64,000 nucleotides of DNA from a virus (Duplodnaviria; Heunggongvirae; Uroviricota; Caudoviricetes): positions 42,581 to 106,580 of the IMG/VR virus record IMGVR_UViG_3300012344_000014, one strand, 5' to 3'. The translations under genes and the position numbers were made by a program. The notes beneath the pieces were generated by a model. It saw only the letters and a list, made by a program, of their open reading frames with translations, was not told where the DNA came from and searched no databases. This document shows positions 7,664 through 53,240 of the stretch, piece after piece; position 1 is the stretch's first letter; the number at the start of each line of letters is the position of its first letter.

Positions 7664-7676
7664 GGGGGCGGCGCGC

Positions 7677-8765: not shown

Positions 8766-8789
8766 ACATAAGGGATAAAGGGTGATTTT

Positions 8790-9608
8790 ATGATTTTCAA
8801 CAGAATGATCGGCGGCGGCGGGAAAGCGACGATAACATACAGCGGAACCCACACGACCGAAAGCTATACATTAAACGGGCAGACCTATACGTAGTATAAA
8901 ATTACCGGCTCGGGTACATTAACCGTCAAAGGCAAAGCGAAAGGCGTCAAGGTGTGGCTTTGCGGAGGTGGGGCAAACGGATTGGGTGGAGATGCTTCTG
9001 GTGGCGGGCGTGGCGGCGGCGGAGCGTTTTGTGCTCAGTATGACAGCCAAAAGTTATCCGGCGTATACACGATTGCAATCGCAAGTGGCGGTGGGAACAG
9101 CAGTATAACCACAAACGGGAACGTTGTTTTCTTAGCAAATGGAGCTAGCGGCGCGAACGGCGGCACGGGCGGCGGCGGCTCGGACGGCACTGGCGGCACG
9201 GGTGACGGAGTGACGAAGTATCCGTTCAGTGATTCCACCACTTTTCAATGTCATTGCGCGGGAGGCGGCGGCGGTTCAGGTAAGTATGTCACAAACTATG
9301 ATTGGGATAACTACACAGAATATTCTAATGTAGCTTACGCCGGGAATGGCGGTTCCAACGGCGCGGCAGGCGGTAAAGGCTCGTCACCCGTAACTTACAG
9401 CGCACGTAATGCTCCCGGAGGAAGCGTCGGCGGCGGAACCGGTGGCTCTAAGTCCGCGGGAAGCGCTGCGACGTTCTATGGGAGCGGTGGAGGTGGCGGC
9501 GGGAGCGAAGATTATTCCATTTCGCACGACCCCGGCTACGCAAACCGGAGTTACAGCGGCGGTTCCGGCTACCAAGGCATTGTATACTTACTCGTTCCAA
9601 TTGAATAA
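8790..9608 (+). CDS. glycine-rich protein, paralogue 2 (read through in-frame TAG 8892-8894)
   Basis: ATG 8790 is in frame with track ORF 8952-9608. The segment TYT-TAG-YKITGSGTLTV aligns with TYTQYTITGSGTLTV of paralogue 1. Confidence 0.75.
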
Positions 9609-9625
9609 CAGGAGGATATAAAGGA

Positions 9626-9886
9626 ATGAAATTTGCAGTTTTATCGACGGACCATACGATGGTTGAAAATGTAATTGTGGCGCGCGAAGACCAGCAAAGT
9701 GAGCTGCAGATCGCGCTGGGGCGCGTACTGATCGACGCAGGGCCTCTTGGCTTGACGGTCGGTGATCTTTTTAACGGCAGTGCTTGGACGCGCAATATAG
9801 AAGGGGAACAGGTCACGCTGCCCATCGGCGACAGCGCGGCTGTCACGGAAGCAATTGCAATTCTGGAAGGAGCGGATGACGAATGA
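9626..9886 (+). CDS. hypothetical protein
   Basis: 86-aa ORF with an AGGAGGA RBS. Confidence 0.5.
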   Translation: MKFAVLSTDHTMVENVIVAREDQQSELQIALGRVLIDAGPLGLTVGDLFNGSAWTRNIEGEQVTLPIGDSAAVTEAIAILEGADDE

Positions 9887-10488
9887 ATATGAGCGAAAGC
9901 CAGCGAACCAAACTGAAAGCAATTCGAGCGGCGATGGACGGCGGCGTAACGCTTGCGGCGGCGCAGGGCGCAGTTGAAATTAACGCCGTAGTAGAAATGA
10001 TCCGCCCTTGGAAGGCGGGCGCATATGCAGTAGGCGATGTTCGAGTTTATGCAGGCGTCCCGTACAAGTGCGTGCAGGCGCATGACTCGACCGAAAACAC
10101 GGACTGGACCCCGGATAAATACCCGGCGCTGTGGATGCAGTATCATGGCACATCCAAGGAGACGGCGCGGGCATGGGTTGCCCCGACCGGCGAGCAGGAT
10201 ATGTACCGCAAGGGCGAATGGATGATCTTCACGGACGGTAAGTATTACGAGTGCCTGACCGACACGAACTACAGCCCCACCGATCTGGCGAGTACATGGA
10301 AAGCAGACGGAGAAGAAACCGGAACCGAAACCGACGAATGGCCTGCGTTTGTTCAGCCGACCGGGGCACACGACGCATACAAGACCGGCGACAAGATAAC
10401 ATTCAATGGCAAGCATTACATCTGCAAGATGGACGGCTGTACCTATTCTCCGACCGACTACCCGGACGGCTGGACGGAACAGGCATAA
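9883..10488 (+). CDS. putative carbohydrate-binding protein (three CBM5/12-like repeats)
   Basis: The pattern W/Y-K-x-G-x(5-9)-Y-x-C-x(5-10)-W/Y-x-P occurs three times (e.g. WKAGAYAVGDVRVYAGVPYKCVQAH...WTPDKYPALW). Family assignment is from memory. Confidence 0.55.
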   Translation: MNMSESQRTKLKAIRAAMDGGVTLAAAQGAVEINAVVEMIRPWKAGAYAVGDVRVYAGVPYKCVQAHDSTENTDWTPDKYPALWMQYHGTSKETARAWVAPTGEQDMYRKGEWMIFTDGKYYECLTDTNYSPTDLASTWKADGEETGTETDEWPAFVQPTGAHDAYKTGDKITFNGKHYICKMDGCTYSPTDYPDGWTEQA

Positions 10489-10509
10489 CAAACAGCGGAG
10501 GCGAGGCGG

Positions 10510-12747: not shown

Positions 12748-13505
12748 TATTGAATATAAGCTTGCCCGGCAAGGCGGGAAAGGCCGAGTTCACCTATACC
12801 GGTGCTTACACGCTCAAGCAGATCACTTCCGGTGGCGTGACGTATGACCTGTATACGCTGACCGGCTCTGGCACGCTGACCGTGACGGGGACGGCGAAGA
12901 ATGTGGATGTGTGGTGCTGCGGGGGCGGGGCAACCTACTCGTATTACAGCGGCGGTGCTGGCGCGTATTGCGCGCAGGTAGACGCTCAGTCCCTTCACTG
13001 TGATTATGTGGTTGCCATAGGCGGTTCCGGCGGGAATACCTCAGTTGGCTCACTTGTCAGTGCGAATGGCACGACAACAGCCAACGGGGGCACAGGTGGC
13101 GGCGGTGGAAATATTGGCGCAAACTTTAACGCTCCCACAGGCGACGGGATAACTAAATACCCTTTCGGGGACACGACAAACTTTAGGTGTCATTGCGCAG
13201 GCGGCGGCGGTGGCGGCGTGAATTATTCCTCCGACGATAATAGTTGGCAATACAATGGCGGCGCTGGCGGCTCGAACGGTAGCAACGGGGCAAAGTCAAC
13301 AAGCGGTATCGGCGACGCTGGCGCTGGTGGTAATTATGGCGGTGGGCAGGGCGGTTCGCGTCACTCGATCAATGGCAAAGCTGCGACATTTTATGGTTCT
13401 GGCGGCGGTGGATATGGTGCGGGTTCTATGGGAACTTACGGGCCAAATACCGGTACCGCTGGTGCGGGTTACCAAGGCGTCGTCTACATCCGCGTACCGG
13501 TATAA
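12744..13505 (+). CDS. glycine-rich protein, paralogue 3
   Basis: AAGGAG RBS; ATG 12744 overlaps the fibre 3 stop (ATGA). Contains VTYDLYTLTGSGTLTV, WCCGGGA and the GYQGVVYIRVP ending. Confidence 0.75.
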   Translation: MILNISLPGKAGKAEFTYTGAYTLKQITSGGVTYDLYTLTGSGTLTVTGTAKNVDVWCCGGGATYSYYSGGAGAYCAQVDAQSLHCDYVVAIGGSGGNTSVGSLVSANGTTTANGGTGGGGGNIGANFNAPTGDGITKYPFGDTTNFRCHCAGGGGGGVNYSSDDNSWQYNGGAGGSNGSNGAKSTSGIGDAGAGGNYGGGQGGSRHSINGKAATFYGSGGGGYGAGSMGTYGPNTGTAGAGYQGVVYIRVPV

Positions 13506-15904: not shown

Positions 15905-17527
15905 TCATAAGGAAACATTCTATTGGTCGAGCTTCCCGGCGAACTTGTAGTAAATTTCTATTTTCTGCGTTGGTTTGCCATTCTGGTCACAGCGTCTATC
16001 GTGGACTACGATTTTGTCGATCAGCGCATTGAGCATCGGGATAGTCAGTTTGGTTGGATGGGTGTAACGTTTGACCATGTTAGCCCATTCGTTAAGACCT
16101 CTTTGGGTTTCGTCGGTAGCTCGTTGTGCTTCTTCGGCGGCAGCGATGAATTCTTGAAGGGCGGTTTGCTCGTCTTGGTATTTTTTGAGCAGCGTCGAGA
16201 AATTGTTCGGAGTGATGTTTCCTTCGGCGCGATCCTCATAGAGTGAGGCGAGCATCCCGTCTATTTTTCGTAGACGCCGCTTTTTATCATCAAGCTTCGC
16301 TTGCTCCTTGTCCCCACTAGACTGAGTTGCTTTGCGCGAAGAATTCATAATCTCCTGGGCAAAATCTATTTCGTTCCCAGCGAGTGTCGAGGTCCAATAC
16401 TGTATCCGTGATAGCACATAATTGTAGAGGGTAGACTGCCTTATGTAATGCGCGGTGCAGTGTTCTTTACCGAATTCCGAATATTGCCGGCAGACGTAGG
16501 CTTTATCGTCGGGAGCATAGCAGGGACGGGCTTTCAACGCTTTCCCGCAGGTTGAACATTTTAGCAGACCGGCGAAAAGCTGGGGCGTCCCATCCCCGCA
16601 GGAACGACGCCGCCGTGAAATATTTTCCTGAACCCGCTCGAATGTCTCGCGCGATATAAGAGGCGGATGGGTATTTTCTACCCGGTAAAACTCATCAGCG
16701 GAGTTGTGAATTCGTTTTTTGCTTTTGTACGAAATCTTTTGCCTGCGGTAATGAATCGTATTTCCAATGTATGTTTCATCCATCAGTATGGAACGCACGG
16801 CGGAGCTTTGCCAGAAGCTTTTCTTCTCTTCGGCGGCGTTCTCATAGTATTGCGAATACGCGCCGTAGCGGCTATAGCCAACCCAGCCCGGGGTAGGGAC
16901 TTTGGACGTCCTCAGATACCTTGCGATTACATTGTAGCCGTTTCCTTCCAGCGCAAGCGCGTATATCTTTTCGATGATCCAGCGGGTGTCTTCGTCGATG
17001 AGGAGTTTGCCTTTTTCTTTCGGACTCCATATATAACCGAGCGGCGGTGTGGGGCCTAGGCGTTCGCCTTTTTCATATTTCGCTTTTAGCGCGGCCTTTA
17101 CTTTCCGGCTGGTGTCTTTGGCGTACCACTCGTTGAAGAGGTTCTTAAAAGGGGAGAAGTCGCTCATACCTTTCTCGGAGTCTTCGCCGTCGTTTACCGC
17201 CACATAGCGGACGCGCTTCTCAGGGAACACGTATTCCAAGTAGCGATCCACCTGAATGTGTTCGCGCCCCAACCGGGAGAGGTCTTTTGTGATAACGCAA
17301 TTCAACGCGCCTTTGTCAATGTCCGCCATCATACGTTGAAACGCCGGTCGGTCAAAATTTGTACCAGACCATCCATCGTCGACGTATTCATCATAAATCG
17401 CAATGTTGTTGTCTTCGCAATATTGATGAAGAATCCGGCGCTGCGTTTCAATGCTGCCGCTGTCGCCCGGCTCTCCGTCATCGTTGCTTAGCCGCATGTA
17501 AAGAGCGGCTACCCAGGGTTGTTTCAT
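15905..17527 (-). CDS. large serine recombinase (integrase)
   Basis: Resolvase-type N-terminus (ALYMRLSNDDG...SIETQR), recombinase and zinc-ribbon regions and a C-terminal coiled coil. AAGGAGG RBS before ATG 17527. The frame meets TAG at 15920-22, then TGA at 15905-07. Confidence 0.9.
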
Positions 17528-17594
17528 TCCCATCCTCCTTTCGATAGAGAAACAACCCACATTTGCATGCGGGTTGATTATAGCATAAGTGGAA

Positions 17595-17756
17595 TTAAGA
17601 CGCAATTTTAAGATTGCGAAGGATGAATTCTTTGAAGAGGTCGGCGAATGGTTGGCCGTCCGCAGCGAAATGTTCTGTTATAAGAATTTTCACTTTGCCG
17701 GCGTCAAAGCATTTTTGTTCAGTCAATAGTATATTCTTCTCTGCGATTCCGAACAT
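17595..17756 (-). CDS. small hypothetical protein upstream of the recombinase
   Basis: AAAGGAG RBS then ATG 17756; 53 codons (MFGIAEKNILLTEQKCFDAGKVKILITEHF...) ending in TAA 17595-97. Below the track length cutoff. Confidence 0.4.
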   Translation of the reverse strand: MFGIAEKNILLTEQKCFDAGKVKILITEHFAADGQPFADLFKEFILRNLKIAS

Positions 17757-24556: not shown

Positions 24557-26855
24557 ATTCCTGTCCACCGAAATACCTCCGGTCATATTCATTCTTGCGC
24601 TCGGCCGACCACTTCGACACGCGGGTCAGATAGCCGATGATGCGCGTGGCATAATCCAGATTTTCACTGCTGCACTTTGGGCACTTCTCCAGCTTGTGCT
24701 TGCTGATATACCCGCAGTCGTTGCAGATGGTATTGGGAACGTTGAAGGTAAAATACGAGCAGCCTTCATGAATCGCGTTGAGAATGAGCAGCTCGTACTG
24801 GCGAGCGGTGAGGTGTTCTTCGAGGTTGATATGGCAGGCGCTGCCGCCGTCGAGATTGCGGATATAACGATCGCCATGCAGCCGAATCTTATCAAGAACC
24901 GTTGTTTTAGGATCTTCAACCACGAAGAAATAGCTGTTATAACACGCTCTCGGGACGGAGAGCCCGTCGGCTTTATCCCATTTGGCGTTCTTCACGCCTA
25001 AGCTTTCGGCTGGCACGTACTCCGTGTTAAACATAACGCCCGGCTCGGCATCGGCCACGTTCCGCCGGTGAATCGTATCAAGGATGAGATCAGTGAACTC
25101 GCCGTAAGCCTTGTTGTCACCGACCGGAATGCCCAGATACTCCGCCGCCTCGACCAGACCGTTGATGCCAACGGTAAGATACTGCTTCTCCGGCGAAACG
25201 AACCCTGCGTCATAAAGCGGGATCATATGCTTGGCCTGCGCATCCTTCACCATCGCGTTATACGCTTTCAAATAGCGATGGACATGCGCGGTCAGATCGT
25301 CAAGCGAGGCTTTGACCTTGGCCAGATCGCCGCCGCAGCCCTGAACGAGCCGGTTGATATTGATGGTCATGACGCGCTTGGAGCCGGTCGCGATGCCGCC
25401 CGCGCCAAGGCTGTAAGTGAACTGGTTTTCAACGATGTTGTTTTTCAGGCGGCAGTTATGCGTAATTACTCCGGAGGGAAGCATGAAGTAGGGCTCGCAC
25501 CCATCATCAACCTCGAGGCAGTAAACATAATCGTATGTATTGGCGCTCTCGATCACCTCAGATACCGGGCGGTATGTATACATCCTGCTTTCGGGATCCC
25601 AACACTGGACTTCATCCCCCTCGACGAGCTCCTTCGCCTGGACGTCTCCGCGCCGGGTGGGGAAAAGATGGTTATCCGTCACCTCATACATATGGCGGGC
25701 GTTCGGCTTGACGTCGATTGTGATAAAATACATCTGACGGCCGGGGAGACGAATGAGAGTCGCGGGAACCACTTCCTCACCGAGCATAACCCGAACACGA
25801 AAATCCTGTTCCTGTTCAAGCATCTGGTAAAGACGCTCTGCAGCCCCGACAAGCAATGTGTTATGCTGGTCCCAGACGGAGAACAGTGTATCCGGCGCAA
25901 AGCAGCACGAACTCAAGCTATCCACGCTATCGCTGGTATAAGTGAAAAAACTGTGCCCTTCGGCATACATCTCGGCGATATGCTTCAGTGCCCGCTGGTC
26001 AACAGCCGTCTTGCCGTTGTTCAGGAGAGAGAACGTTTCGACCGGGAAGGTGATGATCTTGCGGAGCCGCTCCTGATTAAACCACTTCATAAACCGAACC
26101 TGCAGCCACCAGAGGGACTCCCAGAGATCGGTCATTACTGTGCCGTCCGGGAAGGCGAAACCTTCGAACAGCCCGCGGAAATACGGCTCATCAAAATAGG
26201 AAATATTCCAGAAGACGGCCTGATTGCCGCGCGCCGCCGCCGGTTGATTGACCGAGTAGACAACCTGCGCGAAGGTATCGGTGATCACGTTATCAATGGT
26301 GCGCTTGCGGCCGAACAGTTCGGCTTGCGTATCCGGCTTCAGATAATAATCTTCGCCGTATTCCTTGACGAGGAAATAGTTCATATAGGCGAGAAACTCC
26401 GGGGTGGCAATCGCGCCGAGCACCTGAGCGGAAGCGGCGAACACCAGATTGACAAACCCGCCGGCGAAACTTTGCAGCGTCTTGGGAGCGTCCGACGTGC
26501 CGCCCAGCCCCTTCAAGCCGTGCAAAAGAAACGGGTACATAGTGATGCTAGCGCAATAGATCTGCGGGGTCTGGCCGGTTTCATCATGGCAATAGACACG
26601 ATGGGTTTCGAGGTTATCAATGTAGCTGTCGGCCTCTTCCTCGCCGTACATGGCGGTGAGCATATCATGCATCATCAACCGGCTGGTATAGATGCGGCCG
26701 CGCTTACCGCTTTCGGACGCGAGGGTGGCCAGATTCTTTGAACTGACATTGGAGTTTGGATCATAGTCGCTGCTTTCGGCGGCGCATTTTTCATCCATAT
26801 AACGTCTGATGAAATTTGCTTCCGGACGATAGCGCGCATATTTGTCGGGGATCAT
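24534..26855 (-). CDS. nrdD: anaerobic (class III) ribonucleotide reductase, intein-containing
   Basis: 773-aa ORF; Zn ribbon CNDCGY..KCPKC, glycyl-radical motif TRIIGYLTR, and the active-site SSC/CRL motif split by an insert. Confidence 0.95.
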   Translation of the reverse strand: MIPDKYARYRPEANFIRRYMDEKCAAESSDYDPNSNVSSKNLATLASESGKRGRIYTSRLMMHDMLTAMYGEEEADSYIDNLETHRVYCHDETGQTPQIYCASITMYPFLLHGLKGLGGTSDAPKTLQSFAGGFVNLVFAASAQVLGAIATPEFLAYMNYFLVKEYGEDYYLKPDTQAELFGRKRTIDNVITDTFAQVVYSVNQPAAARGNQAVFWNISYFDEPYFRGLFEGFAFPDGTVMTDLWESLWWLQVRFMKWFNQERLRKIITFPVETFSLLNNGKTAVDQRALKHIAEMYAEGHSFFTYTSDSVDSLSSCCFAPDTLFSVWDQHNTLLVGAAERLYQMLEQEQDFRVRVMLGEEVVPATLIRLPGRQMYFITIDVKPNARHMYEVTDNHLFPTRRGDVQAKELVEGDEVQCWDPESRMYTYRPVSEVIESANTYDYVYCLEVDDGCEPYFMLPSGVITHNCRLKNNIVENQFTYSLGAGGIATGSKRVMTININRLVQGCGGDLAKVKASLDDLTAHVHRYLKAYNAMVKDAQAKHMIPLYDAGFVSPEKQYLTVGINGLVEAAEYLGIPVGDNKAYGEFTDLILDTIHRRNVADAEPGVMFNTEYVPAESLGVKNAKWDKADGLSVPRACYNSYFFVVEDPKTTVLDKIRLHGDRYIRNLDGGSACHINLEEHLTARQYELLILNAIHEGCSYFTFNVPNTICNDCGYISKHKLEKCPKCSSENLDYATRIIGYLTRVSKWSAERKNEYDRRYFGGQEYENQTES
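25455..25904 (-). mobile_element. mini-intein (150 aa) in nrdD
   Basis: The insert starts CFAPDT directly after SLSSC and ends VITHN, followed by +1 Cys (CRLKNN). Removal restores the SCCRL-type motif. No endonuclease motifs were seen. Confidence 0.85.
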
Positions 26856-27064
26856 TCAACAGATACTCCTTTGCTGAGATATTTCATGGCCTGCGCAAAG
26901 TTCATGAGATTGCCGTCCTTGTCTTCGAGGGCGGGGACAACCTGAATGCCTTTTGCCTTCAGCTGCTCCGCATCGGAAACAATATTGCATGGGATCTAAA
27001 GCTGCGCGAGCCGCTCGGCAAGCAGGTCGCACATGGGGCAGCCGGGAAGAGTATAAAGCGTCAT
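26852..27064 (-). CDS. NrdH/glutaredoxin-like redoxin (read through in-frame TAG 26996-26998)
   Basis: AAAGGAG RBS then ATG 27064. MTLYTLPGCPMCDLLAERLAQL-TAG-IPCNIVSD...VVPAL carries a CPxC motif and cis-Pro VP. The TGA overlaps the nrdD ATG (ATGA). Confidence 0.7.
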
Positions 27065-27082: not shown

Positions 27083-27122
27083 TCATATAATAAAGGGAAC
27101 ATTTTCATGCCCCCTTTTTCAC
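27083..27122 (-). promoter_or_regulatory. conserved intergenic element, copy 1 (candidate phage-specific promoter)
   Basis: The - strand reads TGAAAAAGGGGGCATGAAAATGTTCCCTTTATTATATGAAAGGAG, just upstream of the nrdH-like/nrdD/nrdG operon. Near-identical copies lie at 32556 and 51774. Confidence 0.5.
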
Positions 27123-27628
27123 ATTTGAAAAATTTTATTTTGAATAAGCCACGCGACGCCTACCGCAACCGCATCAGATTCGTCGTCGCAGGCGTAACGC
27201 TGAGGGCCGACATAATCCTCAAGCATCTCGGCCACGCGGTCTTTCTCCGCATTGGCGTCGCCGGTGACGATGCGCTTGGTCATGCGAGGATCGATCTCTT
27301 CAAACTCTCTGCCTGTCAAATGCCAGGCATAAAGATCGGCCACGCCGACAACCTTATGCAAAACCCCGATGGTCTTCATCTGATAGCGGCCGGGGTAAAT
27401 CGCTTTCTCTCGAACCAATATGGCGTCCGGATAAGCGGTCATATATCGCTTCTATTCGCGCGCAATCTCCAGAAGCATCTGGCCATGCGTTTTCTTGCGG
27501 GCATACTTGTTGTTGACATTGCTGAGCTCGCGCACGGTGATCGTATTATTCTCACAATGAAGCAGCGCAAAGCCGGGGCGATGGAGCGAGAGATCGCAGG
27601 CGAAGACATCGACGGCGGTTTCAGGCAC
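27119..27628 (-). CDS. ruvC: RuvC-like Holliday junction resolvase (read through in-frame TAG 27452-27454)
   Basis: GAGGGGA RBS then GTG 27628. The N-terminal half (VDVFACDLSL...LLEIARE) and C-terminal half (YPDAILVRE...TGDANAEKDRV...DESDAVAVGVAW) are in one frame, separated only by TAG. Confidence 0.75.
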
Positions 27629-31080: not shown

Positions 31081-31444
31081 CGAAGGTTGATTCCTCCTTT
31101 CCTTCTTCATTATTAATGAGGGAATCCGCCTCGACGCCGTCCGTGTTTTCAGGATCGGTTTCAGCGTATTCGCTATCCCGATCATAGAGGTTGCCGCGCA
31201 TATCGCCGTTGAGGCGCATGAGCAGCGTTTCAAACCGGAGAGAGGAGAGCATAACGGTGCCCTCGTTAAAGAGAATGACGGAGCGGATTTTGCGCCCGAC
31301 CGTCGCATCCAAGAGATGCTTACGGCCTTTGGCAGCTTTGACCTATTCTTTCGAAGTCATGGTGCGCGGGTTAAGAACGGCAATGACATGATTGGCGCAG
31401 ACGGCATGCTTCAGGCCAGCGTTGACAAAGCGCAGTTCTTCCAT
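31067..31444 (-). CDS. RemA/DUF370-like protein with acidic tail (read through in-frame TAG 31343-31345)
   Basis: ATG 31444 abuts the upstream stop. MEELRFVNAGLKHAVCANHVIAVLNP..SKE-TAG-VKAAKGRKHLLDATVGRKIRSVILFNEG.VMLSSL..ETL..R follows the RemA pattern across the TAG, in frame with track ORF 31067-31312. Confidence 0.65.
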
Positions 31445-32555: not shown

Positions 32556-32594
32556 CATATAATAAAGGGAACATTTTTCACCCCGCTTTTTCAG
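32556..32594 (-). promoter_or_regulatory. conserved intergenic element, copy 2
   Basis: The - strand reads TGAAAAAGCGGGGTGAAAAATGTTCCCTTTATTATATGAAAAG, between the Pol III alpha stop and the SPFH gene. Confidence 0.5.
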
Positions 32595-35500
32595 TTTGAG
32601 CGGGCGAAACAGAAATTTTTTTGTAGCCGTCCATCCAAAGCTCAGTCACGCCGGGCTTGACAGAACGTTTGCCATCCTGATACTGATAGGCGGGCTTCTT
32701 CTGCCAGCCAAGGAGCTTGATGACGTCGCCGGCCTTAACGGGATCTTTAGCGAAATCAGGCTTGCGAATTTTCATCACACCGGTGTCTCCGGTGGAGACG
32801 CTATAGAGCTTCAGCTTGGGGCTATATTTCTCATCCACATCAATGACGGCGTAGCAGCCCTTCTTTTCGGGATAGACGCTGAGGGGCGCGCCGAAATAGT
32901 CGCACTCGAAGGGAATGATTTCCTCCATGGGGAGATCTTCATCCGGCAGGGAAGACTCCAGATCGCGCAGGACGGCGAGACGTTTCTGCTGCGTCTTCTC
33001 GACGAGCCCTTTATAGAACCGGTTCTCGCCGGACTTGAACTCCTGAAAGAGCTTGAGCAGTTTGGCGGAGCCGCCGAAATCGCTGAAGTATCCCATCTTG
33101 ATGAGCGCGGTGATGCTGGTGGCGTCGAACGCCGGAGACATATCCATATCGTAAAGCAGATCGGTGAAGTAAAGATACAGCGTATCGCGCATTTTATAGA
33201 GCGCGTCGGCGACTTTTCTACTGACGTGCTTGACGGAGGTGAGCGCGTCGGCGATGGTGTGCGCGCTTTCATCGATAAAGAAATCGCGGTTATCCTGCCC
33301 GAACTTGCAAGCGACGACGCGGATGCCGAACGCCCGACGCATTTCCTCCTTGGCTTTGGCGATGCGGTCTTTATCCTTCTTGGCGGCGTAGGCGCGAAGC
33401 AGGGTGGTGTAATACTGATAAGGATAGTGCGCCTTGAGCCATGCGCCGTAAAGACTATCCAGCGCGACGCAGGTGGCATGCGATGCATTAAAAAGATAGG
33501 AGCAGGAATCGTTGATGATCTGCCAGATTTTATCGGTGGTGGCGAGAGCTTCGGCCTCAGTGACATGCTCCTCCTCCACGATGCGCTGAGAGAACGTGGC
33601 GCGGAACTTTTCCTTGAGAGCGAGCACCTTTTCGGGATGCTTCTTCGAGATGGCCTTGATGGCGGCATAGGATTCAGCCCCAGTGAAACCGCCATGCTGT
33701 AGGACTTTCATGATCTGCTCCTGAAACATGAGGAAGCTGTCGGGAATTTCTTTCGTCTGAAGCAGGTTATCCAGCGAGGGGATACCATAATCGAAATGCC
33801 GGCGGGCGAGGAATGTATCGATCATCGACTTGAAGCCCGGGCGGATGGCGGCGACGAACGCGGCCAGCTCGGTAATATTGCGCGGCTTATAGCGGGCGAC
33901 CTTTTCAGTGGCCTTCTCGCGCTCAACCTGATTGAGCCCCATGGTATAGCCTTTGGCGTACATATCCCAGACTGGATCATCCGGCGGGCACATGGCGAGC
34001 AGTTCGTTAACAGAGGGGAGGGGGATATTGGCGGCCTTGTAGGCGGCGGCGTTGATGTTGACGACGGTGACGGAAAGAAGATCGTTTTTTAGATATCCGT
34101 ATCGATCCGCTGTCGCCCCGTCGATAAAAGCGGCATAAATAGTTCCCTTCTTGCCGGTTTTGCTATTGATACGATAAAGCCCAATTTCCCGGCGGATATC
34201 CTGATCGGTCAGAAGATAGGAACAGGGGCTGGGGGAGATGGAATCGACCATGCCAAGATATTTATTGGACATGCGCAGCTGCTCATGATACTCCTTGGGC
34301 ACGTAATCGAACGGATCGATGGCTTCGCGGTCTTCATCGTCTTCGGCGTATTTTACATCAAGCTCATACTTTTTCAAGCTGTCAGAGATGGCGTTAGCCG
34401 TTTCGAAGGCGACGTTGGTAGAACGGCAATACATCTTCCAGGCGGAAAGCCGTTTGAGCGTGCCAAAGGCGACCATCTGCGCGCTATGCCACTCGCCCAT
34501 GACCTCGGCCTGCGCTTTTTCAAACACCTCAACGTTGCCGCAGTTCAGATCCAAATCCGGCATCTGACCGGTGCTCAGGCGCTCTTTGGAAATAAACCGG
34601 TCGGGGTACATGGTGACGGGCATCTTCAAGCGATCAACGGAGGAGAAGCCGAGAAGCATATTCGTCAGGAAACTGACGCCGCTATTATGGACGACCATAT
34701 GATTAAGTAAGTAGCTGTGTGAATTTTCGATATGCAGATCGTAGACTTTGCACTTCTGCCGAGGTAGAAGATTGATTCCAGTAACTGGAATAAGCCAGTA
34801 CTTGTCGTTTTCAGATATTTTGCGTGACATCCCATAAGGAGTTGAATAAACGGGAATAACCCATTTATATGAGGTTTTGCAGTTATAACCGCGTTTATCA
34901 AACCAACGATCTCGCACTGTAAGCCGCGGCGGCTTCTCTCCAGCTTTCATACAAAGAATATTAAAGGCGTTCATCAAGGAAGGAGATGTATTGTCAAAGC
35001 ATTTACGATCCGATTCAGCAAAACAGCCATCGGTACGCATAAGCCCCGATAAAAAAGCTTTTGATTTCTCGTTATCAAGAAGCAAAATCTCATCGGGGAC
35101 AACTTTATCGTTTCCCTTTTTTGAAATGAAATACGTACAGCCAAGATATTTAGCAAAGGAAGAAGCATGCAGGGTAAGTTGAACCAATTTTTTATTTTTA
35201 GCTTTCGCTTCATAAATAGTTCCGCCAACCCGCGATGCCATAGTCTCAAAGATTTTGCGATTGTAAATATTTTTTTCGTTCTCCGCATTGATGGCAATAC
35301 CACAGACATAACTGCCGTCGTTTCTATGTCGAACCCAGCCGTCTCCATACATCATACCAAGGAATTCGTAATAGAGCGCGTCTTTAACGACCCATCTGCT
35401 CATCAACCGAAAACAAGTATCCTTATATTTTTGCGTAAGCGCTTCTTGAGTATCAACACCATAATAATCGAGTATTTCTCTTTTTGCTTTATTGAGATAT

Positions 35501-37089
35501 ACCCCAGGGCCACGACGAACTTCCGCGGAAGTTCGCCCAACAACAAAATTGTATAACGCTGAACGGGAGATGTGGAATTTTTTCATCAGGATTTCCCAGC
35601 CAAACGCTTCGCGCATCATGTCTTTGCGTAATTCAAAAATATGATCTCCGTCAAATATAGAGGCTCTGCTAATGTATTTGCTGAGATCAACCACTTCGGC
35701 AGTTTGTGAGGCCGGCTGAACAATCTTCGGAATACAAAGCAAATCCCCTTTCTTCAGCCGCGATGCTTCCACCCAGTCATAAGAGCCGTTCAACCGGCAA
35801 ACGAGAACACGATGATCCAACGTACATGTAGGATAAGAGCCAAACATCTTATTCGCCGGAGCCTGAATTTCAACAAGGGGTTCGTCAATATCATAAGAGA
35901 AGGTTTCAATTACTTTTTGATAATCCCCATCCTTATCAATTACAACGTCTCCAGGAGCCACTTGCGAAATTTGTTTCAGCCCGGTCAGTGTTGGCACACG
36001 CGCAGTGTCGGTGAAACAGCCCCTTCCAGATTGGGTTAACACCCCGCCTTCCCGCTTGGCAGTATCGACAACGCGGTTATCAATAAGAAAATAATCCGAA
36101 GTGTTGGTACCGGTAACGGCGTCTGTCTCATACCGGATCGCTTCTTCGTATTCCGGCCAGCGCTCCTGCGGCACTTCAGCTTTATACTGATCCCACGCCT
36201 GATGTACAAGGTCGAGATATTTTTGATTGCGCTCTTCCTGCGTCATGTCGGGATAAGCCGCGGGGAGCTTGCGGCGTTTACCAAACGAGACATCCTCAAA
36301 ATCCAGGAAGACGTTTGTGTTTTCCATCGCTTCATTAATCTGGGCGACGGACAGAACGCCCTGCGCCTTGAACCTGTCGAGCAAATGCTTTTCAGAGGGA
36401 TAATCCATATCCCAACCCTCTTCATCTTCATATTTAAGATGATGGGACTCAAGCAGCTGATCGCGCAGTTTGGAATCCTCCGGGTAAATGAAATGGGAAT
36501 CGGTTGCGGCAATGAGCGGGATATTATACTTGCGATAAAGATCGAGCACGAGCCGGTTGACATCCTTCTGCTTATCGACGTTATGCGCCTGAACCTCGAG
36601 CATGAAGCTGCCGCGGAAATGATCGTTCAAGAGCGTAACGAGCCGTTCGGCCTCCTCCGCGCCGTACTTCCAAATACCGCCGACGCAGGCTGTGGTAACG
36701 AATACATCCTTCGGATCGAGGGCCATGAGCAGATCCAGATCGACGCGGGGGCGATAGTAATAGCCGGTGATATTCGCTTCGGAGAGCGCATAATTCAAAT
36801 CGCCGACGCCTTTGCGCGTCTTCGCTGCCAGAATGAGATGGCAGTTGGATTTGTCTTTTTCGAAGCGGTCCTTGACGAAATAGGCTTCGGTAACATAGCG
36901 CCACTTCAGGCCATACTTTTCAGCTAGCTCGGCGCACTCCCAATAGTTGCCCTGCGTGCCATGGTTACAGGAGGAAAGAACCGTCTGGTTCAGTTCGACG
37001 GCGCGCCTGGCGTAATCCTCCATGGTGGCGACGCTGTCGGCAAGCATGATATTGGAGATGTGATCATGTTTATGATAATTGACGTACAT
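32578..37089 (-). CDS. dnaE: DNA polymerase III alpha subunit (PHP plus polymerase core), intein-containing
   Basis: GGAGGT RBS then ATG 37089. The PHP N-terminus is MYVNYHKHDH. About 1500 aa; the GRG/SGVSF (GRGSAAGS-type) motif is split by an insert. Confidence 0.9.
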   Translation of the reverse strand: MYVNYHKHDHISNIMLADSVATMEDYARRAVELNQTVLSSCNHGTQGNYWECAELAEKYGLKWRYVTEAYFVKDRFEKDKSNCHLILAAKTRKGVGDLNYALSEANITGYYYRPRVDLDLLMALDPKDVFVTTACVGGIWKYGAEEAERLVTLLNDHFRGSFMLEVQAHNVDKQKDVNRLVLDLYRKYNIPLIAATDSHFIYPEDSKLRDQLLESHHLKYEDEEGWDMDYPSEKHLLDRFKAQGVLSVAQINEAMENTNVFLDFEDVSFGKRRKLPAAYPDMTQEERNQKYLDLVHQAWDQYKAEVPQERWPEYEEAIRYETDAVTGTNTSDYFLIDNRVVDTAKREGGVLTQSGRGCFTDTARVPTLTGLKQISQVAPGDVVIDKDGDYQKVIETFSYDIDEPLVEIQAPANKMFGSYPTCTLDHRVLVCRLNGSYDWVEASRLKKGDLLCIPKIVQPASQTAEVVDLSKYISRASIFDGDHIFELRKDMMREAFGWEILMKKFHISRSALYNFVVGRTSAEVRRGPGVYLNKAKREILDYYGVDTQEALTQKYKDTCFRLMSRWVVKDALYYEFLGMMYGDGWVRHRNDGSYVCGIAINAENEKNIYNRKIFETMASRVGGTIYEAKAKNKKLVQLTLHASSFAKYLGCTYFISKKGNDKVVPDEILLLDNEKSKAFLSGLMRTDGCFAESDRKCFDNTSPSLMNAFNILCMKAGEKPPRLTVRDRWFDKRGYNCKTSYKWVIPVYSTPYGMSRKISENDKYWLIPVTGINLLPRQKCKVYDLHIENSHSYLLNHMVVHNSGVSFLTNMLLGFSSVDRLKMPVTMYPDRFISKERLSTGQMPDLDLNCGNVEVFEKAQAEVMGEWHSAQMVAFGTLKRLSAWKMYCRSTNVAFETANAISDSLKKYELDVKYAEDDEDREAIDPFDYVPKEYHEQLRMSNKYLGMVDSISPSPCSYLLTDQDIRREIGLYRINSKTGKKGTIYAAFIDGATADRYGYLKNDLLSVTVVNINAAAYKAANIPLPSVNELLAMCPPDDPVWDMYAKGYTMGLNQVEREKATEKVARYKPRNITELAAFVAAIRPGFKSMIDTFLARRHFDYGIPSLDNLLQTKEIPDSFLMFQEQIMKVLQHGGFTGAESYAAIKAISKKHPEKVLALKEKFRATFSQRIVEEEHVTEAEALATTDKIWQIINDSCSYLFNASHATCVALDSLYGAWLKAHYPYQYYTTLLRAYAAKKDKDRIAKAKEEMRRAFGIRVVACKFGQDNRDFFIDESAHTIADALTSVKHVSRKVADALYKMRDTLYLYFTDLLYDMDMSPAFDATSITALIKMGYFSDFGGSAKLLKLFQEFKSGENRFYKGLVEKTQQKRLAVLRDLESSLPDEDLPMEEIIPFECDYFGAPLSVYPEKKGCYAVIDVDEKYSPKLKLYSVSTGDTGVMKIRKPDFAKDPVKAGDVIKLLGWQKKPAYQYQDGKRSVKPGVTELWMDGYKKISVSPAQTEKAG
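34684..36018 (-). mobile_element. intein (445 aa) with LAGLIDADG homing endonuclease in Pol III alpha
   Basis: Starts CFTDT after QSGRG and ends MVVHN followed by +1 Ser. Two LAGLIDADG-like motifs are present (FLGMMYGDGW, FLSGLMRTDGCF). The region is visibly more AT-rich than its flanks. Confidence 0.9.
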
Positions 37090-37103
37090 AATACCTCCAC
37101 CCC

Positions 37104-37132
37104 TTGTTATTTCAAATGAGACATGATATACT
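37104..37132 (+). promoter_or_regulatory. sigma-A-type promoter (TTGTTA-N17-TATACT with a TG extension)
   Basis: Lies in the divergent intergenic region between dnaE and the + strand island. Confidence 0.55.
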
Positions 37133-37165
37133 TTGTTTATAATGCACGAAAGGATTTGAACGACA

Positions 37166-45086: not shown

Positions 45087-45688
45087 CAATGTGGAGACGA
45101 CCCCACGATCCCATCTGCGATACCTAGCCATTGTTTTCCCTCCATTAATTTTGTCCGAATTCGCGCGCCCGTTTCCGCGACGCGCTGCTGAACGCGTTGG
45201 CGGCTGAGCCCGAGCTCGTCACCGAGCGACTGACAGGTTTTGCCACCTATATGATAACACAGATACAGCCGCGCCGCATCCTCGCCGACAATGGATTTCA
45301 TATAAGAAACGATGCGCTGCGCATCCATAAAGGCGTCTGCATCGGTGATACAGCGCTGATCGCCGGGGAGATAATAGTCGATCATCATATCGGAAAGAAA
45401 ACCGACGCCACTCTCTGGTTTACGGGACTGCGTGTTATTATACGCGTTAAGATGGGAGAGCTCGCTGCGAACCTGGTGCCAGAGATAAGTCGACCAGGCG
45501 CATTTGCCGGGGACATAGCTCTGCACGGCGCGAACCGCAACAAGATGGACGAGTCCAAGCGAATCATCGAACCCCAAATCCCGTCGATAACGCGCAAGCT
45601 TTGAAGCATAGAGGACAAGCAGCCCATAATTCCGCTCGAGGAAGGCGCGCTGCGCATCAGTGAGCGGCGGACAAATTTTCTTTCTCAT
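45086..45688 (-). CDS. sigma-70 family RNA polymerase sigma factor 1
   Basis: Region 2-like (LVHLVAVRAVQSY...STYLWHQVRSEL) and region 4 HTH (SLGDELGLSRQRVQQRVAETGARIR). Confidence 0.7.
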   Translation of the reverse strand: MRKKICPPLTDAQRAFLERNYGLLVLYASKLARYRRDLGFDDSLGLVHLVAVRAVQSYVPGKCAWSTYLWHQVRSELSHLNAYNNTQSRKPESGVGFLSDMMIDYYLPGDQRCITDADAFMDAQRIVSYMKSIVGEDAARLYLCYHIGGKTCQSLGDELGLSRQRVQQRVAETGARIRTKLMEGKQWLGIADGIVGSSPH

Positions 45689-49555: not shown

Positions 49556-50107
49556 TCAGGCGGCGAACGCCGCATATTTTTTTCGGATACGCTGCAGGGT
49601 GCGCATGGCCGTAGCATCGCCAAAGCCGGCGGCACGCCCCGCATCGCGCGTGGTGGCACCGTTCATTTTCTGCTGGACAAGTATTCTTTCAGGCTTGGAA
49701 AGGGTGCCGAGGAAGATATCGAAATCAGCCTGTGTCTCGATATCTTCCGCAGTAGAGCCTTCTTTGGCATAATAATCCAGCCCATCGAACATAATCGACG
49801 AATCAACGGGATAGGAAATGGTTTTTGTGAAATCAGTCGTGCGCTTGGGGATATGGACGACATTCATCTCCATCAGGTAGCGGCACATTGCGTTCGTCAT
49901 ATCAAGAAGCGGGGCTTTGCGCGCCGTTTCGATATCGGGGCTGCGGCGGATATGCTCCAGCATAACAATGGACGCTTCCTGAAAGAGATCCTCCGCGCAG
50001 GCGCTATAATTTTTGTCATTGCGGCGTCTAAACTGATGGACAGCTGACCAGACCAGATTTATACAGGAACGAAAAATCTGGTCTTCCTGACCGGGAGAAA
50101 GATTCAT
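49556..50107 (-). CDS. sigma-70 family RNA polymerase sigma factor 2 (divergent)
   Basis: Region 2-like DLFQEASIVMLEHI and region 4-like SKPERILVQQKMNGATTRDAGRAAGFGDATAMRTLQRIRKKY. Confidence 0.6.
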   Translation of the reverse strand: MNLSPGQEDQIFRSCINLVWSAVHQFRRRNDKNYSACAEDLFQEASIVMLEHIRRSPDIETARKAPLLDMTNAMCRYLMEMNVVHIPKRTTDFTKTISYPVDSSIMFDGLDYYAKEGSTAEDIETQADFDIFLGTLSKPERILVQQKMNGATTRDAGRAAGFGDATAMRTLQRIRKKYAAFAA

Positions 50108-51741: not shown

Positions 51742-51773
51742 GGTAAAATACCCCCTTCTCGAATTTTGTTTTT

Positions 51774-51811
51774 CAATAATAAAGGGAACATTTTCGGCAC
51801 CGTTTTTTCAC
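51774..51811 (-). promoter_or_regulatory. conserved intergenic element, copy 3
   Basis: The - strand reads TGAAAAAACGGTGCCGAAAATGTTCCCTTTATTATTGAAAAAC, upstream of the ATPase/ssb/sigma operon. Confidence 0.5.
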
Positions 51812-51843
51812 TTTTCGAAAATTTTCTTCGAAAAAATTTTTAT

Positions 51844-52740: not shown

Positions 52741-52945
52741 TTCCCTGTTCCCTCCTTCTGCGCGCGGCGACGATCTGCTTATATTCCTCAACGACCTCAT
52801 TCAGCCGGGGCGTGCGCAGATAGCGCCAGTAACGCGTGCCGAACTCATCCTTATAGGAATTCTCATAGCGGATATCGTGGACGTGGATGAAGGTTTCGAG
52901 GGCGAAGTTGTTCGTTTCAAAGATTTCGGGATTCTGATTCATCAT
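52724..52945 (-). CDS. hypothetical protein
   Basis: 73-aa ORF. Confidence 0.45.
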   Translation of the reverse strand: MMNQNPEIFETNNFALETFIHVHDIRYENSYKDEFGTRYWRYLRTPRLNEVVEEYKQIVAARRRREQGNVQAG

Positions 52946-53162: not shown

Positions 53163-53240
53163 AATTAAACACCTCGTTTCTGCGACATATGATACCCGAC
53201 GCGGAAGGAATTGTCAAGAGGAAATGCGAACGAACGTTCT

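What the first reader, a model, noticed from the sequence alone, without database searches (positions are those of the whole stretch)
27083..27122. Conserved ~40-nt intergenic element present three times in front of early operons
On the - strand, TGAAAA-N9-GAAAATGTTCCCTTTATTAT(A/T)TGAAAA occurs at 27083-27122, 32556-32594 and 51774-51811. The first lies before the nrdH-like/nrdD/nrdG operon. The second lies before the SPFH/remA-like/thyX/dut operon. The third lies before the ATPase/ssb/sigma operon. The 20-nt core GAAAATGTTCCCTTTATTAT is identical in all three copies apart from one extra A in the A-run of copy 2. The spacing to the upstream TGAAAA is constant. It does not look like TTGACA-N17-TATAAT. 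I saw the core only at these three sites. It is a good candidate for a phage-specific promoter or regulator-binding site.
Basis: seen in the sequence. Interest (0 to 1): 0.6.

Follow-up and report, generated by a model that had tools for sequence, protein, structure and literature searches.

The report
Phage-specific promoter motif before replication operons
A conserved two-part DNA signal sits in front of four operons (three of them in this window), mostly DNA-replication and nucleotide-metabolism genes, in an uncultivated gut Clostridia phage. It is most likely a promoter read by one of the phage's own sigma factors, which is an ordinary kind of phage control element with a sequence not described before.

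Summary
The element occurs three times on the - strand, with 0 matches expected by chance. A fourth copy lies about 30-70 nt beyond the window end, judged from a related contig.

Relatives redefine the element. The invariant parts are TGAAAAA, 8 variable bases, then nAAAATGTTCCCTTTA, in a fixed register. A G or TG 6-7 nt after TTTA is the likely transcription start.

The element keeps its positions in relatives: after dnaE, before nrdH, before the ATPase gene, and before a 93-aa/DUF932 gene. It always points the same way as the downstream genes. In more distant relatives it changes in step across all copies within a genome, and there it follows rho-independent terminators.

It does not match the host sigma-A consensus, yet three near-consensus sigma-A promoters serve the early genes at 53-56 kb. 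The phage encodes two small sigma-70-family factors downstream of copy 3.

Best reading (about 0.6): a middle-class promoter recognised by a phage sigma factor.

Rivals:
- a dispersed asymmetric operator;
- a host alternative sigma factor;
- an RNA-level anti-Shine-Dalgarno element.

No transcription data exist. It is a new member of a known kind, of moderate interest.

A side finding is that TAG appears to be read as a sense codon in this phage.

The parts
27083..27122 (-). Copy 1 of the element, upstream of the nrdH-like/nrdD/nrdG operon. Upstream block TGAAAAA 27115-27121; core AAAATGTTCCCTTTA 27091-27105; inferred start point about 27084-27086; nrdH-like ATG at 27064.
   Evidence: The TGA stop of the upstream RuvC-like ORF (27119-27121) is the TGA of the TGAAAAA block.
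32556..32594 (-). Copy 2, upstream of the SPFH/RemA-like/thyX/dut operon. TGAAAAA 32587-32593; core 32563-32577; inferred start point about 32556-32558; SPFH ATG at 32527.
   Evidence: The TGAAAAA block and the spacer lie inside the last codons of dnaE (32578-37494), whose TGA stop at 32578-32580 abuts the core.
51774..51811 (-). Copy 3, upstream of the AAA_24 ATPase/SSB/sigma(183 aa)/DUF2828/primase-helicase/sigma(200 aa) operon. TGAAAAA 51804-51810; core 51780-51794; inferred start point about 51774-51775; ATPase TTG at 51741.
   Evidence: The tyrosine integrase gene upstream ends at 51844.
51811..51843 (-). A/T-tract (AATAAAAATTTTTTCGAAGAAAATTTTCGAAAAG) directly upstream of the TGAAAAA of copy 3. 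It looks like an UP element. Equivalent tracts lie at 27122-27144 (copy 1) and 32611-32623 (copy 2).
   Evidence: An AAAA(A)TTT(T)C tract is present upstream of every one of the close-clade sites. Its function is inferred.
49556..50107 (-). 183-aa sigma-70-family factor (sigma2 + sigma4, ECF size). It is the candidate reader of the element.
   Evidence: TIGR02937 E=4.8e-6 over the full length, and PHROG sigma families E=3.5e-6. The L126 ortholog scores 45.9 bits, above the 42.9-bit cut-off. A profile of orthologs hits PDB sigma-F 1l0o_C at E=1.7e-6. The AlphaFold model has two helical domains, and the listed top 50 Foldseek PDB matches are essentially all sigma-factor chains.
45086..45688 (-). 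200-aa second sigma-70-family-like protein in the same operon.
   Evidence: TIGR02937 E=7.7e-11, 41.9 bits against a cut-off of 42.9, over the full length; Sigma70_r4 E=2.7e-4. In L126 and L127 the gene at this position has its own copy of the element.
53189..53217 (-). Near-consensus host sigma-A promoter (TTGACA-17-TATCAT) upstream of the RHH/73-aa/integrase genes. With no terminator in between, it can read through copy 3. Two more lie at 55615-55643 and 55946-55974.

Best explanation
The element is a bipartite promoter of the phage's middle (replication and nucleotide-metabolism) genes. It is recognised by host core RNA polymerase carrying a phage-encoded sigma-70-family factor, most likely the 183-aa protein at 49556-50107 and otherwise the 200-aa one.

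Proposed anatomy:
- TGAAAAA acts as the -35-like block, preceded by an A/T-rich UP-like tract.
- An 8-nt variable, G/C-rich stretch is spacer.
- AAAATGTTCCCTTTA covers the lower spacer and the -10-like block (about CCCTTTA).
- Transcription starts at the conserved G/TG 6-7 nt downstream, leaving a 20-35 nt leader with the ribosome-binding site.

Proposed sequence of events: early after infection or induction, host sigma-A promoters at 53-56 kb transcribe through copy 3 into the ATPase/SSB/sigma operon. The new sigma factor then fires all four copies, including copy 3 in front of its own gene (positive feedback).

Shown here: the sequence anatomy, its conservation, its position, and the presence and family of the sigma genes. 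Inferred: which sigma reads it, where transcription starts, and the timing.
For: 1. There are three exact copies in the window with 0 expected by chance. A fourth lies at the orthologous place in L211, just outside the window.

2. Every instance is intergenic or at a gene end, co-oriented with the next gene. The core ends 26-38 nt before the start codon in the window, and 94 nt before it in L208.

3. Across ten sites in about five genomes, TGAAAAA and nAAAATGTTCCCTTTA are invariant and in a fixed register, while the 8-nt spacer and the flanks vary. The block centres are about 23 bp apart, as in sigma-70-family promoters.

4. The element stays after dnaE even where an RNA-ligase gene has been inserted downstream of it (L209).

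5. In relatives with about 50% protein identity the element differs but is shared by all copies within a genome:
- L126 has three copies of TGAAAA-N14-GTTCCCATTATA.
- L127 has two copies of (T/C)GAAAA-N14-GT(G/C)(C/T)CCATTATG.
- L130 has two copies of TGTAAG-N14-GTGCCTC.
This is what a co-evolving phage-encoded reader would produce. The 183-aa sigma diverges in parallel: 65-68% identity where the motif is kept and 27-33% where it has changed.

6. In L126 and L127 the element directly follows a rho-independent terminator, and no sigma-A-like promoter precedes the ATPase gene.

7. The sigma-70 scan lists no promoter at the three sites on the - strand, yet finds three 11/12 consensus promoters for the early genes.

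8. The phage encodes two sigma-70-family factors.

9. Precedent: promoters for the phiEco32/7-11 phage sigma factor also sit upstream of the sigma gene itself, alongside host promoters (PMC4331800).

10. The same cassette precedes unrelated genes elsewhere: an AEP primase in L214/L215 and a serine recombinase in L213. That fits a portable expression signal.
Against: - There is no transcript, start-site or binding data.
- The -10-like block (CCCTTTA) matches no sigma consensus that I could verify. The 15 invariant bases are longer than a usual -10 element, which could mean a second protein also binds there.
- In relatives L128-L135 a canonical sigma-A promoter lies about 60 nt upstream of a degenerate version of the element. 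There it could instead be an operator or a leader element.
- Both sigma genes lie downstream of copies of the element, so a start-up route has to be assumed: read-through in this lineage, terminator leakage in L126.
- Only part of the genome was examined: the 64-kb window of a 112-kb contig, plus about 30 kb of flanking sequence seen only in related contigs. A phage RNA polymerase elsewhere is not strictly excluded.
Confidence: 0.6

Rival explanations
1. Dispersed asymmetric operator. A phage DNA-binding regulator (repressor or activator) binds the 15-bp core at several operon starts and blocks or gates transcription coming from upstream. Possible regulators are the RHH protein at 52917-53162 or the 325-aa multi-HTH protein encoded just upstream of the fourth copy. 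The closest models, from my own knowledge, are the P1 C1 operators and the mycobacteriophage L5 gp71 'stoperators'.
For: - The site is asymmetric, has 15 invariant bases, occurs at several dispersed positions and is always oriented with transcription.
- Lineage-specific co-variation of all copies would also fit repressor-site co-evolution.
- In L128-L135 a degenerate version lies downstream of a canonical sigma-A promoter.
- The window lineage has no terminator upstream of the copies, so read-through transcription exists to be controlled.
- The phage looks temperate: it has tyrosine and serine recombinases and anti-repressor genes.
Against: - The element is bipartite, with a second invariant block at a fixed, sigma-like distance and an UP-like tract. 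A single-site operator would not need these.
- The three strong sigma-A early promoters at 53-56 kb carry no copy, although an immunity repressor should act there.
- In L126 and L127 the element follows a terminator and is the only candidate promoter for the operon.
- There are only about four copies per genome and none in the late region.
Confidence: 0.2
2. The same promoter anatomy, but read by a host alternative sigma factor, for example a forespore-type sigma-F/G of the Clostridia host, rather than by a phage sigma. Expression of the phage replication genes would then be tied to a host developmental state.
For: - The upstream block G(A/C/T)AA(A/G) and the CCC(A/T)TTA block 17-18 nt later partly resemble the sigma-G consensus GHATR-N17/18-CATnnTA. 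That consensus is recalled from my own knowledge and was not verified here.
- Region 4 of the phage 183-aa sigma is closest to the SigB/F/G group: TIGR02980 E=4.5e-8 for the L126 ortholog, and PDB sigma-F at E=1.7e-6. Cross-recognition is therefore conceivable.
- Phage homologs of sigF/sigG can drive host sporulation genes (PMC9429907).
Against: - The motif changes between phage lineages in step with the phage sigma, which a conserved host factor would not allow.
- The match to the recalled consensus fails at key positions (A for T in the -35 block, CC for AT in the -10 block).
- The host is known only as Clostridia MAGs, and whether it sporulates is unknown.
Confidence: 0.1
3. RNA-level element. 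In read-through transcripts the pyrimidine core UGUUCCCUUUA, which resembles the anti-Shine-Dalgarno sequence, pairs with the ribosome-binding site of the next gene and controls its translation. Alternatively it is a binding or cleavage site for an RNA-binding protein.
For: The core can pair with the downstream RBS. The duplex is -13.0, -10.6 and -10.0 kcal/mol at the ATPase sites of the window, L005 and L006, against a control mean of -5.0 (sd 3.0) for 26 other RBS regions. The minimum-free-energy fold of copy 3 uses this pairing.
Against: - Pairing is within the control range at copy 1 (-5.2), the L208 SPFH site (-5.1) and L211 (-4.6).
- No fold is shared between copies, and z-scores are about +1 for copy 2, L005 and L006.
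- The core stays invariant while the RBS sequences differ, so there is no covariation.
- Rfam gives no match.
- This reading explains neither the invariant TGAAAAA block 13 nt upstream nor the fixed spacing.
Confidence: 0.06
4. Antisense promoter. On the + strand the element reads GGGAAC-N17/18-TCA, resembling the E. coli RpoE consensus GGAAC..TCAAA as recalled from my own knowledge. It would drive antisense RNAs into the 3' ends of the upstream genes.
For: Only the sequence resemblance seen on the reverse complement.
Against: - The UP-like A/T tract would then lie downstream of the start site.
- The element always sits 26-94 nt upstream of a - strand start codon and after - strand terminators in L126 and L127.
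- The invariant AAAATGTT and TTTA bases would fall outside the recalled consensus.
Confidence: 0.03

Closest known systems
Promoters of phage-encoded sigma factors in the phiEco32 / 7-11 group (gp36-type sigma; consensus tAATGTAtA, PMC4331800)
   Same: - A short phage-specific motif in front of middle or late operons.
- It is unlike the host sigma-70 consensus.
- It is found by its repetition in intergenic regions.
- Host-type promoters serve the early genes.
- A phage-type promoter also sits upstream of the sigma gene itself.
- The two motifs share the letters AATGT, which may be chance.
   Different: - The phiEco32-type promoters described in that paper are a single -10-like block. Here there are two blocks (TGAAAAA and AAAATGTTCCCTTTA) with a fixed 8-nt gap and an UP-like tract.
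- The host is Clostridia, not Enterobacteria.
- The phage looks temperate.
- Nothing has been tested experimentally.
Bacillus phage SPO1 middle promoters read by gp28, followed by late promoters read by gp33/34 (cascade as summarised in PMC13401047, of which I saw only the abstract; consensus sequences from my own knowledge)
   Same: - A Bacillota phage that uses host sigma-A for early genes and then its own sigma factors.
- Bipartite -35/-10-type promoters with their own consensus.
- Two phage sigma genes, suggesting a cascade.
- Replication genes in the middle class.
   Different: - The SPO1 gp28 consensus (AGGAGA ... TTTnTTT, from memory) is unrelated in sequence.
- SPO1 is strictly lytic.
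- Here both sigma genes lie behind copies of the element.
Dispersed asymmetric repressor sites: P1 C1 operators and mycobacteriophage L5 gp71 stoperators (own knowledge)
   Same: Asymmetric sites of 13-17 bp, spread over the genome in short intergenic gaps, in one orientation relative to transcription, and co-evolving with the phage-encoded protein that binds them.
   Different: - Those systems have about 17-30 sites, including sites at the early lytic promoters. Here there are about four, none of them at the sigma-A early promoters.
- Here a second conserved block lies at promoter-like spacing.
- No cognate repressor has been identified.

Membership tests
Promoter read by a phage-encoded sigma-70-family factor | Upstream of genes and co-oriented with them, at operon starts | tested here: met
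   All 3 window copies, and about 15 copies in relatives, lie upstream of the next start codon on the gene strand. The core ends 26-94 nt before the start codon wherever I measured it.
Promoter read by a phage-encoded sigma-70-family factor | Two conserved blocks separated by a variable spacer of fixed length, with -35/-10-like geometry | tested here: met
   TGAAAAA, 8 variable nt, then nAAAATGTTCCCTTTA, in the same register in all close-clade sites. Block centres are about 23 bp apart. The spacing is one nt shorter in L126, L127 and L130.
Promoter read by a phage-encoded sigma-70-family factor | The phage encodes a sigma factor | tested here: met
   The 183-aa and 200-aa proteins match TIGR02937 over their full length. 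The profile hits PDB sigma-F at E=1.7e-6. The fold search returns essentially only sigma factors.
Promoter read by a phage-encoded sigma-70-family factor | Transcription starts 5-9 nt downstream of the -10 block and depends on the phage sigma | not testable with these tools
   No transcript data. The only indirect hint is a conserved G/TG 6-7 nt after TTTA.
Host sigma-A (sigma-70) promoter, TTGACA-N16-18-TATAAT | Both hexamers present at 16-18 nt spacing | tested here: not met
   The consensus scan lists no - strand promoter at the three sites. TATTAT lies 23 nt from TGAAAA. In close relatives it is replaced by AATAGT, AAGGGT or AAGAGT.
Canonical ECF-sigma promoter (-35 ..AAC, -10 CGT; own knowledge) | AAC in the -35 block and CGT/CGTC about 16-17 nt downstream | tested here: not met
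   The upstream block is TGAAAA, TGCAAG or TGTAAG, with no C at the last position. No CGT occurs at the -10 position in any lineage. The resemblance is limited to TGnAA.
Forespore sigma-F/G-type promoter (GHATR-N17/18-CATnnTA; own knowledge) | Match to both consensus blocks at the right spacing | tested here: inconclusive
   GAAAA-N18-CCCTTTA in the window and GAAAA-N17-CCCATTA in L126 match 4/5 and 5/7 positions but miss the T of GHATR and the AT of CAT. I could not retrieve the consensus as text.
Dispersed asymmetric repressor operators (P1 C1 / L5 stoperator type) | Sites also overlap the early lytic promoters that the repressor must silence | tested here: not met
   The three 11/12 sigma-A promoters at 53189-53217, 55615-55643 and 55946-55974 carry no copy.
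Dispersed asymmetric repressor operators (P1 C1 / L5 stoperator type) | A cognate phage repressor binds the site | not testable with these tools
   Candidate DNA-binding proteins exist (RHH at 52917-53162; the 325-aa multi-HTH protein in L211), but no binding data.
Structured cis-regulatory RNA | Conserved secondary structure with covariation, or a match to a known family | tested here: not met
   No Rfam hit. The folds differ between copies, and z-scores are about +1 for three of the six regions folded. The anti-SD pairing is not general.
Single-subunit (T7-like) phage RNA polymerase promoter | The phage encodes its own RNA polymerase | tested here: inconclusive
   None was found among the window ORFs I scanned against Pfam, PHROGs or NCBIfam, nor among the genes called in flanking loci L211 and L212. 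About 20-25 kb of the 112-kb genome was not examined.

The most novel reading that the evidence does not exclude
The element is read both by the phage's SigF/G-like sigma factor and by the host's forespore sigma factors. Phage replication genes would then switch on in a sporulating Clostridia cell, or the phage sigma would fire host sporulation promoters. That would link prophage activity to dormancy in a TAG-recoded gut phage.
Probability: 0.07. Interest if true: 0.7.

Novelty: new member of a known kind. Interest (0 to 1): 0.4.

Why it matters
Almost nothing is known about how the large uncultivated phages of gut Clostridia time their gene expression. This element gives a concrete and testable handle. 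It offers a defined 31-bp promoter candidate, two candidate sigma factors, four target operons, and natural sequence variants in relatives that can serve as a ready-made mutational series. If confirmed, it would define the middle regulon of this clade of roughly 100-125-kb phages. It would also supply an orthogonal sigma/promoter pair for Bacillota engineering. It does not change any general principle, because phage sigma cascades have been textbook material since SPO1 and T4.

Tried and rejected
1. Searches of IMG/VR for the exact 20-mer and a 14-mer found nothing, or only scattered chance hits with no upstream TGAAAA. Single-protein look-ups of the ATPase and SPFH in IMG/VR gave no close relatives.

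2. Megablast of 8 kb, and tblastn of the ATPase, against deposited phage genomes found no relative above 41% identity. No annotated or cultured reference exists.

3. Host sigma-A promoter: rejected. See the membership table.

4. Structured RNA or riboswitch: rejected. Copy 1 does form a strong hairpin in which the spacer pairs with the core (-21.8 kcal/mol, z=-3.8). This is specific to the nrdH site.

5. Recombination site for the adjacent integrase: the element is made of direct repeats, not inverted ones. It also occurs at three places that have no recombinase gene, so I dropped this idea.

6. Sigma-H, sigma-54, sigma-D and sigma-B consensus sequences (from memory) do not fit the invariant positions.

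7. A literature search for the 12-mer found a 16-17-nt identity (AAAAATGTTCCCTTTA) inside the spacer of the Clostridium thermocellum sigI2 promoter (PMC4711584). The defining sigma-I elements are absent here: the CGWA -10 box, and the C-rich tract upstream of the -35 AAA. I treat the identity as coincidence.

8. A search for the string 'GHATR', intended to verify the sigma-G consensus, returned only irrelevant papers.

9. I looked for a second, late-gene motif upstream of the + strand structural genes. Nothing obvious appeared.

Full report
**1.
The 20-mer GAAAATGTTCCCTTTATTAT occurs on the - strand at 27087-27106, 32559-32578 (one mismatch) and 51776-51795. It occurs nowhere else at up to 3 mismatches. 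None of 100 dinucleotide-preserving shuffles gave a match. The upstream TGAAAA begins at 27121, 32593 and 51810. The T of TGAAAA lies exactly 19 nt before the A of ATGTTCCC in all three copies. A repeat search recovers the three copies as one 71-nt family that runs on into the leader and ribosome-binding site (family D4). An nhmmer profile built later from 14 sites finds no further significant site in the window.

**2. Context in the window.**
The - strand from about 64 kb down to 15.9 kb is one long block of genes.
- Copy 3 follows a tyrosine integrase gene (51844-52800). It precedes an AAA_24 ATPase, SSB, a 183-aa protein, a DUF2828/DUF7788 protein, a primase-helicase and a 200-aa protein.
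- Copy 2 overlaps the last codons and the TGA stop of an intein-containing DnaE (32578-37494). It precedes SPFH, a RemA-like gene, ThyX and dUTPase.
- Copy 1 begins at the stop codon of a RuvC-like ORF. It precedes a glutaredoxin/NrdH-like ORF, NrdD and NrdG.

The window has no tRNA gene and no Rfam match. It comes from a 112-kb contig, Logan SRR1747039_750. No deposited phage is close to it.

**3. Relatives redefine the element.**
Homologs of the ATPase and SPFH proteins led to contigs of related phages of roughly 100-125 kb.

In the close clade (ATPase 81-98% identical) the element sits at the same four places:
- before the ATPase gene (L005, L006, L007);
- after dnaE (L208, L209);
- before nrdH (L208, L209);
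- before a 93-aa/67-aa/DUF932 gene set (L211).

In the window the orthologous 93-aa ORF starts at 63998. The fourth copy should therefore lie about 30-70 nt beyond the window end.

Across the nine sites aligned, plus the L211 copy, TGAAAAA and nAAAATGTTCCCTTTA are invariant. The 8 bases between them and the sequence on both sides vary. It therefore cannot be a conserved -10 hexamer.

A G or TG recurs 6-7 nt after TTTA. That is where a start point would be expected.

In L209 an RNA-ligase gene has been inserted between dnaE and SPFH, downstream of the element. The element thus stays at the operon start.

**4. More distant relatives.**
In phages whose ATPase is about 50% identical the element has a different but related sequence, shared by the copies within each genome:
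- L126 has three copies of gTGAAAA-N14-GTTCCCATTATA(A/G).
- L127 has two copies of (T/C)GAAAA-N14-GT(G/C)(C/T)CCATTATG.
- L130 has two copies of TGTAAG-N14-GTGCCTC.

In L126 and L127 the copy before the ATPase operon directly follows a rho-independent terminator, and no sigma-A-like promoter lies between terminator and gene. In the same two phages another copy precedes the gene equivalent to the 200-aa protein.

In MAG-borne relatives assigned to Clostridia (L128-L135) a canonical TTGnnn-N17-TATAAT promoter lies about 60 nt upstream of a degenerate version of the element. This fits tandem early and middle promoters. It also fits an operator or a leader element.

**5. It is not a host sigma-A promoter, but the phage has those too.**
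The consensus scan lists no - strand promoter at the three sites. It does find three 11/12 matches at 53189-53217, 55615-55643 and 55946-55974. Each lies in an A/T island about 30-45 nt upstream of a ribosome-binding site and start codon. The host consensus is therefore the usual one, and the phage uses it for the genes upstream of copy 3. No terminator separates the 53.2-kb promoter from copy 3.

**6. The phage encodes sigma factors.**
- The 183-aa protein matches TIGR02937 (sigma-70 family) over its full length (E=4.8e-6) and two PHROG sigma families.
- Its L126 ortholog passes the curated cut-off (45.9 against 42.9 bits). It also matches the SigB/F/G subfamily in region 4.
- A profile of seven orthologs hits sigma-F (1l0o_C, E=1.7e-6) and sigma-H structures.
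- An AlphaFold model has two helical domains joined by a disordered linker. The 50 listed best Foldseek matches in the PDB are essentially all sigma-factor chains; the top hits are ECF sigma-L and sigma-H, with sigma-B, sigma-E and sigma-32 lower in the list.
- The 200-aa protein matches TIGR02937 at 41.9 bits over its full length.
- Orthologs of the 183-aa sigma are present in every relative with enough sequence. They are 65-68% identical where the motif is kept and 27-33% identical where the motif has changed.

**7. Most likely mechanism.**
The element looks like a middle-class promoter for a phage sigma holoenzyme. The features that point this way are:
- two fixed blocks with a variable spacer, preceded by an A/T tract;
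- a constant position in front of ribosome-binding sites;
- placement after terminators in some lineages;
- lineage-specific co-variation with a fast-evolving phage sigma;
- the contrast with sigma-A promoters in the same genome.

Read-through from the sigma-A promoter at 53.2 kb would supply the first sigma. Copy 3 would then give positive feedback, as described for the phiEco32/7-11 group (PMC4331800). Which of the two sigma proteins reads the element is inferred, not shown. So are the exact -10 bases and the start point.

**8. Rivals.**
- *Dispersed asymmetric operator.* This is the strongest rival. It explains the long invariant core and the arrangement in L128-L135. It does not explain the second block, the absence of copies from the early promoters, or the post-terminator position.
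- *Host alternative sigma.* This is hard to reconcile with the lineage-specific changes.
- *RNA-level role.* It has weak support. No fold is shared. Pairing of the core with the ribosome-binding site is strong only at the ATPase sites.
- *Antisense promoter.* This reading puts the A/T tract and the genes on the wrong side.

**9. The cassette also occurs in other contexts.**
A scan of metagenome contigs for the full bipartite pattern found three more loci.
- In L214 and L215 the element precedes an AEP-type primase gene.
- In L213 a 107-nt stretch, 89% identical to 51732-51838, sits between an enolase-superfamily gene and a large serine recombinase gene. Nothing else in L213 resembles the phage apart from a weak, distant tblastx similarity between that recombinase gene and the window's own serine recombinase.

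This fits a portable expression signal.

**10. Side finding: TAG as a sense codon.**
Several intact, conserved genes carry an in-frame TAG:
- the nrdH-like ORF, at the same codon in three diverged genomes;
- PAPS reductase;
- the RuvC-like gene;
- the RemA-like gene;
- four late genes in which an RBS and ATG are followed by a TAG 10-34 codons in.

More distant relatives carry tRNA genes with a CUA anticodon. TAG therefore appears to be read as a sense codon, so standard-code gene calls for this phage are partly wrong.

**11. Verdict.**
The feature is real, conserved and almost certainly functional. It is best explained as a phage-sigma-dependent promoter, a new member of a known kind. Confidence in that specific mechanism is about 0.6, because there are no transcription data.

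Noticed in passing
window 26852-27064 (-), TAG at 26996-26998; 42715-42717; 27452-27454; 31343-31345; + strand TAG at 2714, 4617, 8892, 13879: In-frame TAG codons interrupt otherwise intact, conserved genes. These are the nrdH-like ORF (same codon in L208 and L209), PAPS reductase (relatives have V or K at that position), the RuvC-like and RemA-like genes, and four late genes where an RBS and ATG are followed by a TAG 10-34 codons in. A paralogous tail-fibre copy has CAG where one copy has TAG. This suggests TAG is decoded as an amino acid (stop-codon recoding). Standard-code ORF calls split these genes.
   Followed up: partly
L133 19211-19296; L135 17728-17812: More distant relatives of the phage carry a tRNA with anticodon CUA (an amber suppressor, labelled tRNA-Pyl by ARAGORN). 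This fits TAG recoding in the wider clade. None was found in the window or in the close-clade loci fetched.
   Followed up: partly
just beyond window position 64000; L211 8111-8150: A fourth copy of the element (GTGAAAAAacaggggctcAAATGTTCCCTTTATTATACG) lies upstream of the 93-aa/67-aa/DUF932/Bro-Ant genes in a related 117-kb contig. In the window the orthologous 93-aa ORF starts at 63998, so the copy should lie about 30-70 nt outside the window. A 325-aa multi-HTH protein is encoded just upstream of it.
   Followed up: partly
window 53189-53217, 55615-55643, 55946-55974 (-): Three near-consensus (11/12) sigma-A promoters sit in front of early-region genes: the RHH/integrase genes, the DUF6088/AbiEii pair, and an 89-aa ORF. 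The palindrome GAACGTTC lies just upstream of the -35 hexamer of the 53.2-kb promoter and could be an operator.
   Followed up: partly
window 27092-27117 (-): In copy 1 only, the variable spacer (AAAGGGGGCAT) is complementary to the core (ATGTTCCCTTT), giving an 11-bp hairpin or inverted repeat (RNA fold -21.8 kcal/mol, z=-3.8). L208 and L209 keep it, with a G-to-A change that turns a G-U pair into A-U. It might add nrd-specific control.
   Followed up: partly
L213 2033-2139; L214 1282-1312; L215 1241-1271: The element occurs outside the phage's usual context. In L213 it is a 107-nt cassette between an enolase-superfamily gene and a large serine recombinase gene. In two short contigs it lies upstream of an AEP-type primase gene. 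L215 also shares two copies of the window's intergenic stretch 59198-59298.
   Followed up: partly
window 32578-37494 (-); L208 15400-18192; L209 2484-5660: Inteins come and go between close relatives. DnaE has an intein in the window and in L208 but not in L209 (1058 aa). NrdD has an intein in L208 but not in the window.
   Followed up: no
window 7163-13505 (+): The late region holds several paralogous tail-fibre-like genes with shared 50-156-nt repeats and collagen-like Gly-X-Y stretches (repeat families D1-D3, D5, D7-D12).
   Followed up: no
window 15920-17605 (-), 51844-52800 (-), 38881-40083 (-), 54012-55567 (-): The phage carries both a large serine recombinase and a tyrosine integrase. 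It also carries a PARP/WGR protein, a DUF6088/AbiEii toxin-antitoxin-like pair and several Bro-N/ANT anti-repressors. This points to a temperate lifestyle and an arsenal for conflict with the host.
   Followed up: no
literature: PMC4711584, Table 1: The Clostridium thermocellum sigI2 promoter contains AAAAAATGTTCCCTTTA in its spacer, a 16-17-nt identity with the core of the element. The defining sigma-I boxes are absent from the phage element, so this is probably coincidence.
   Followed up: partly
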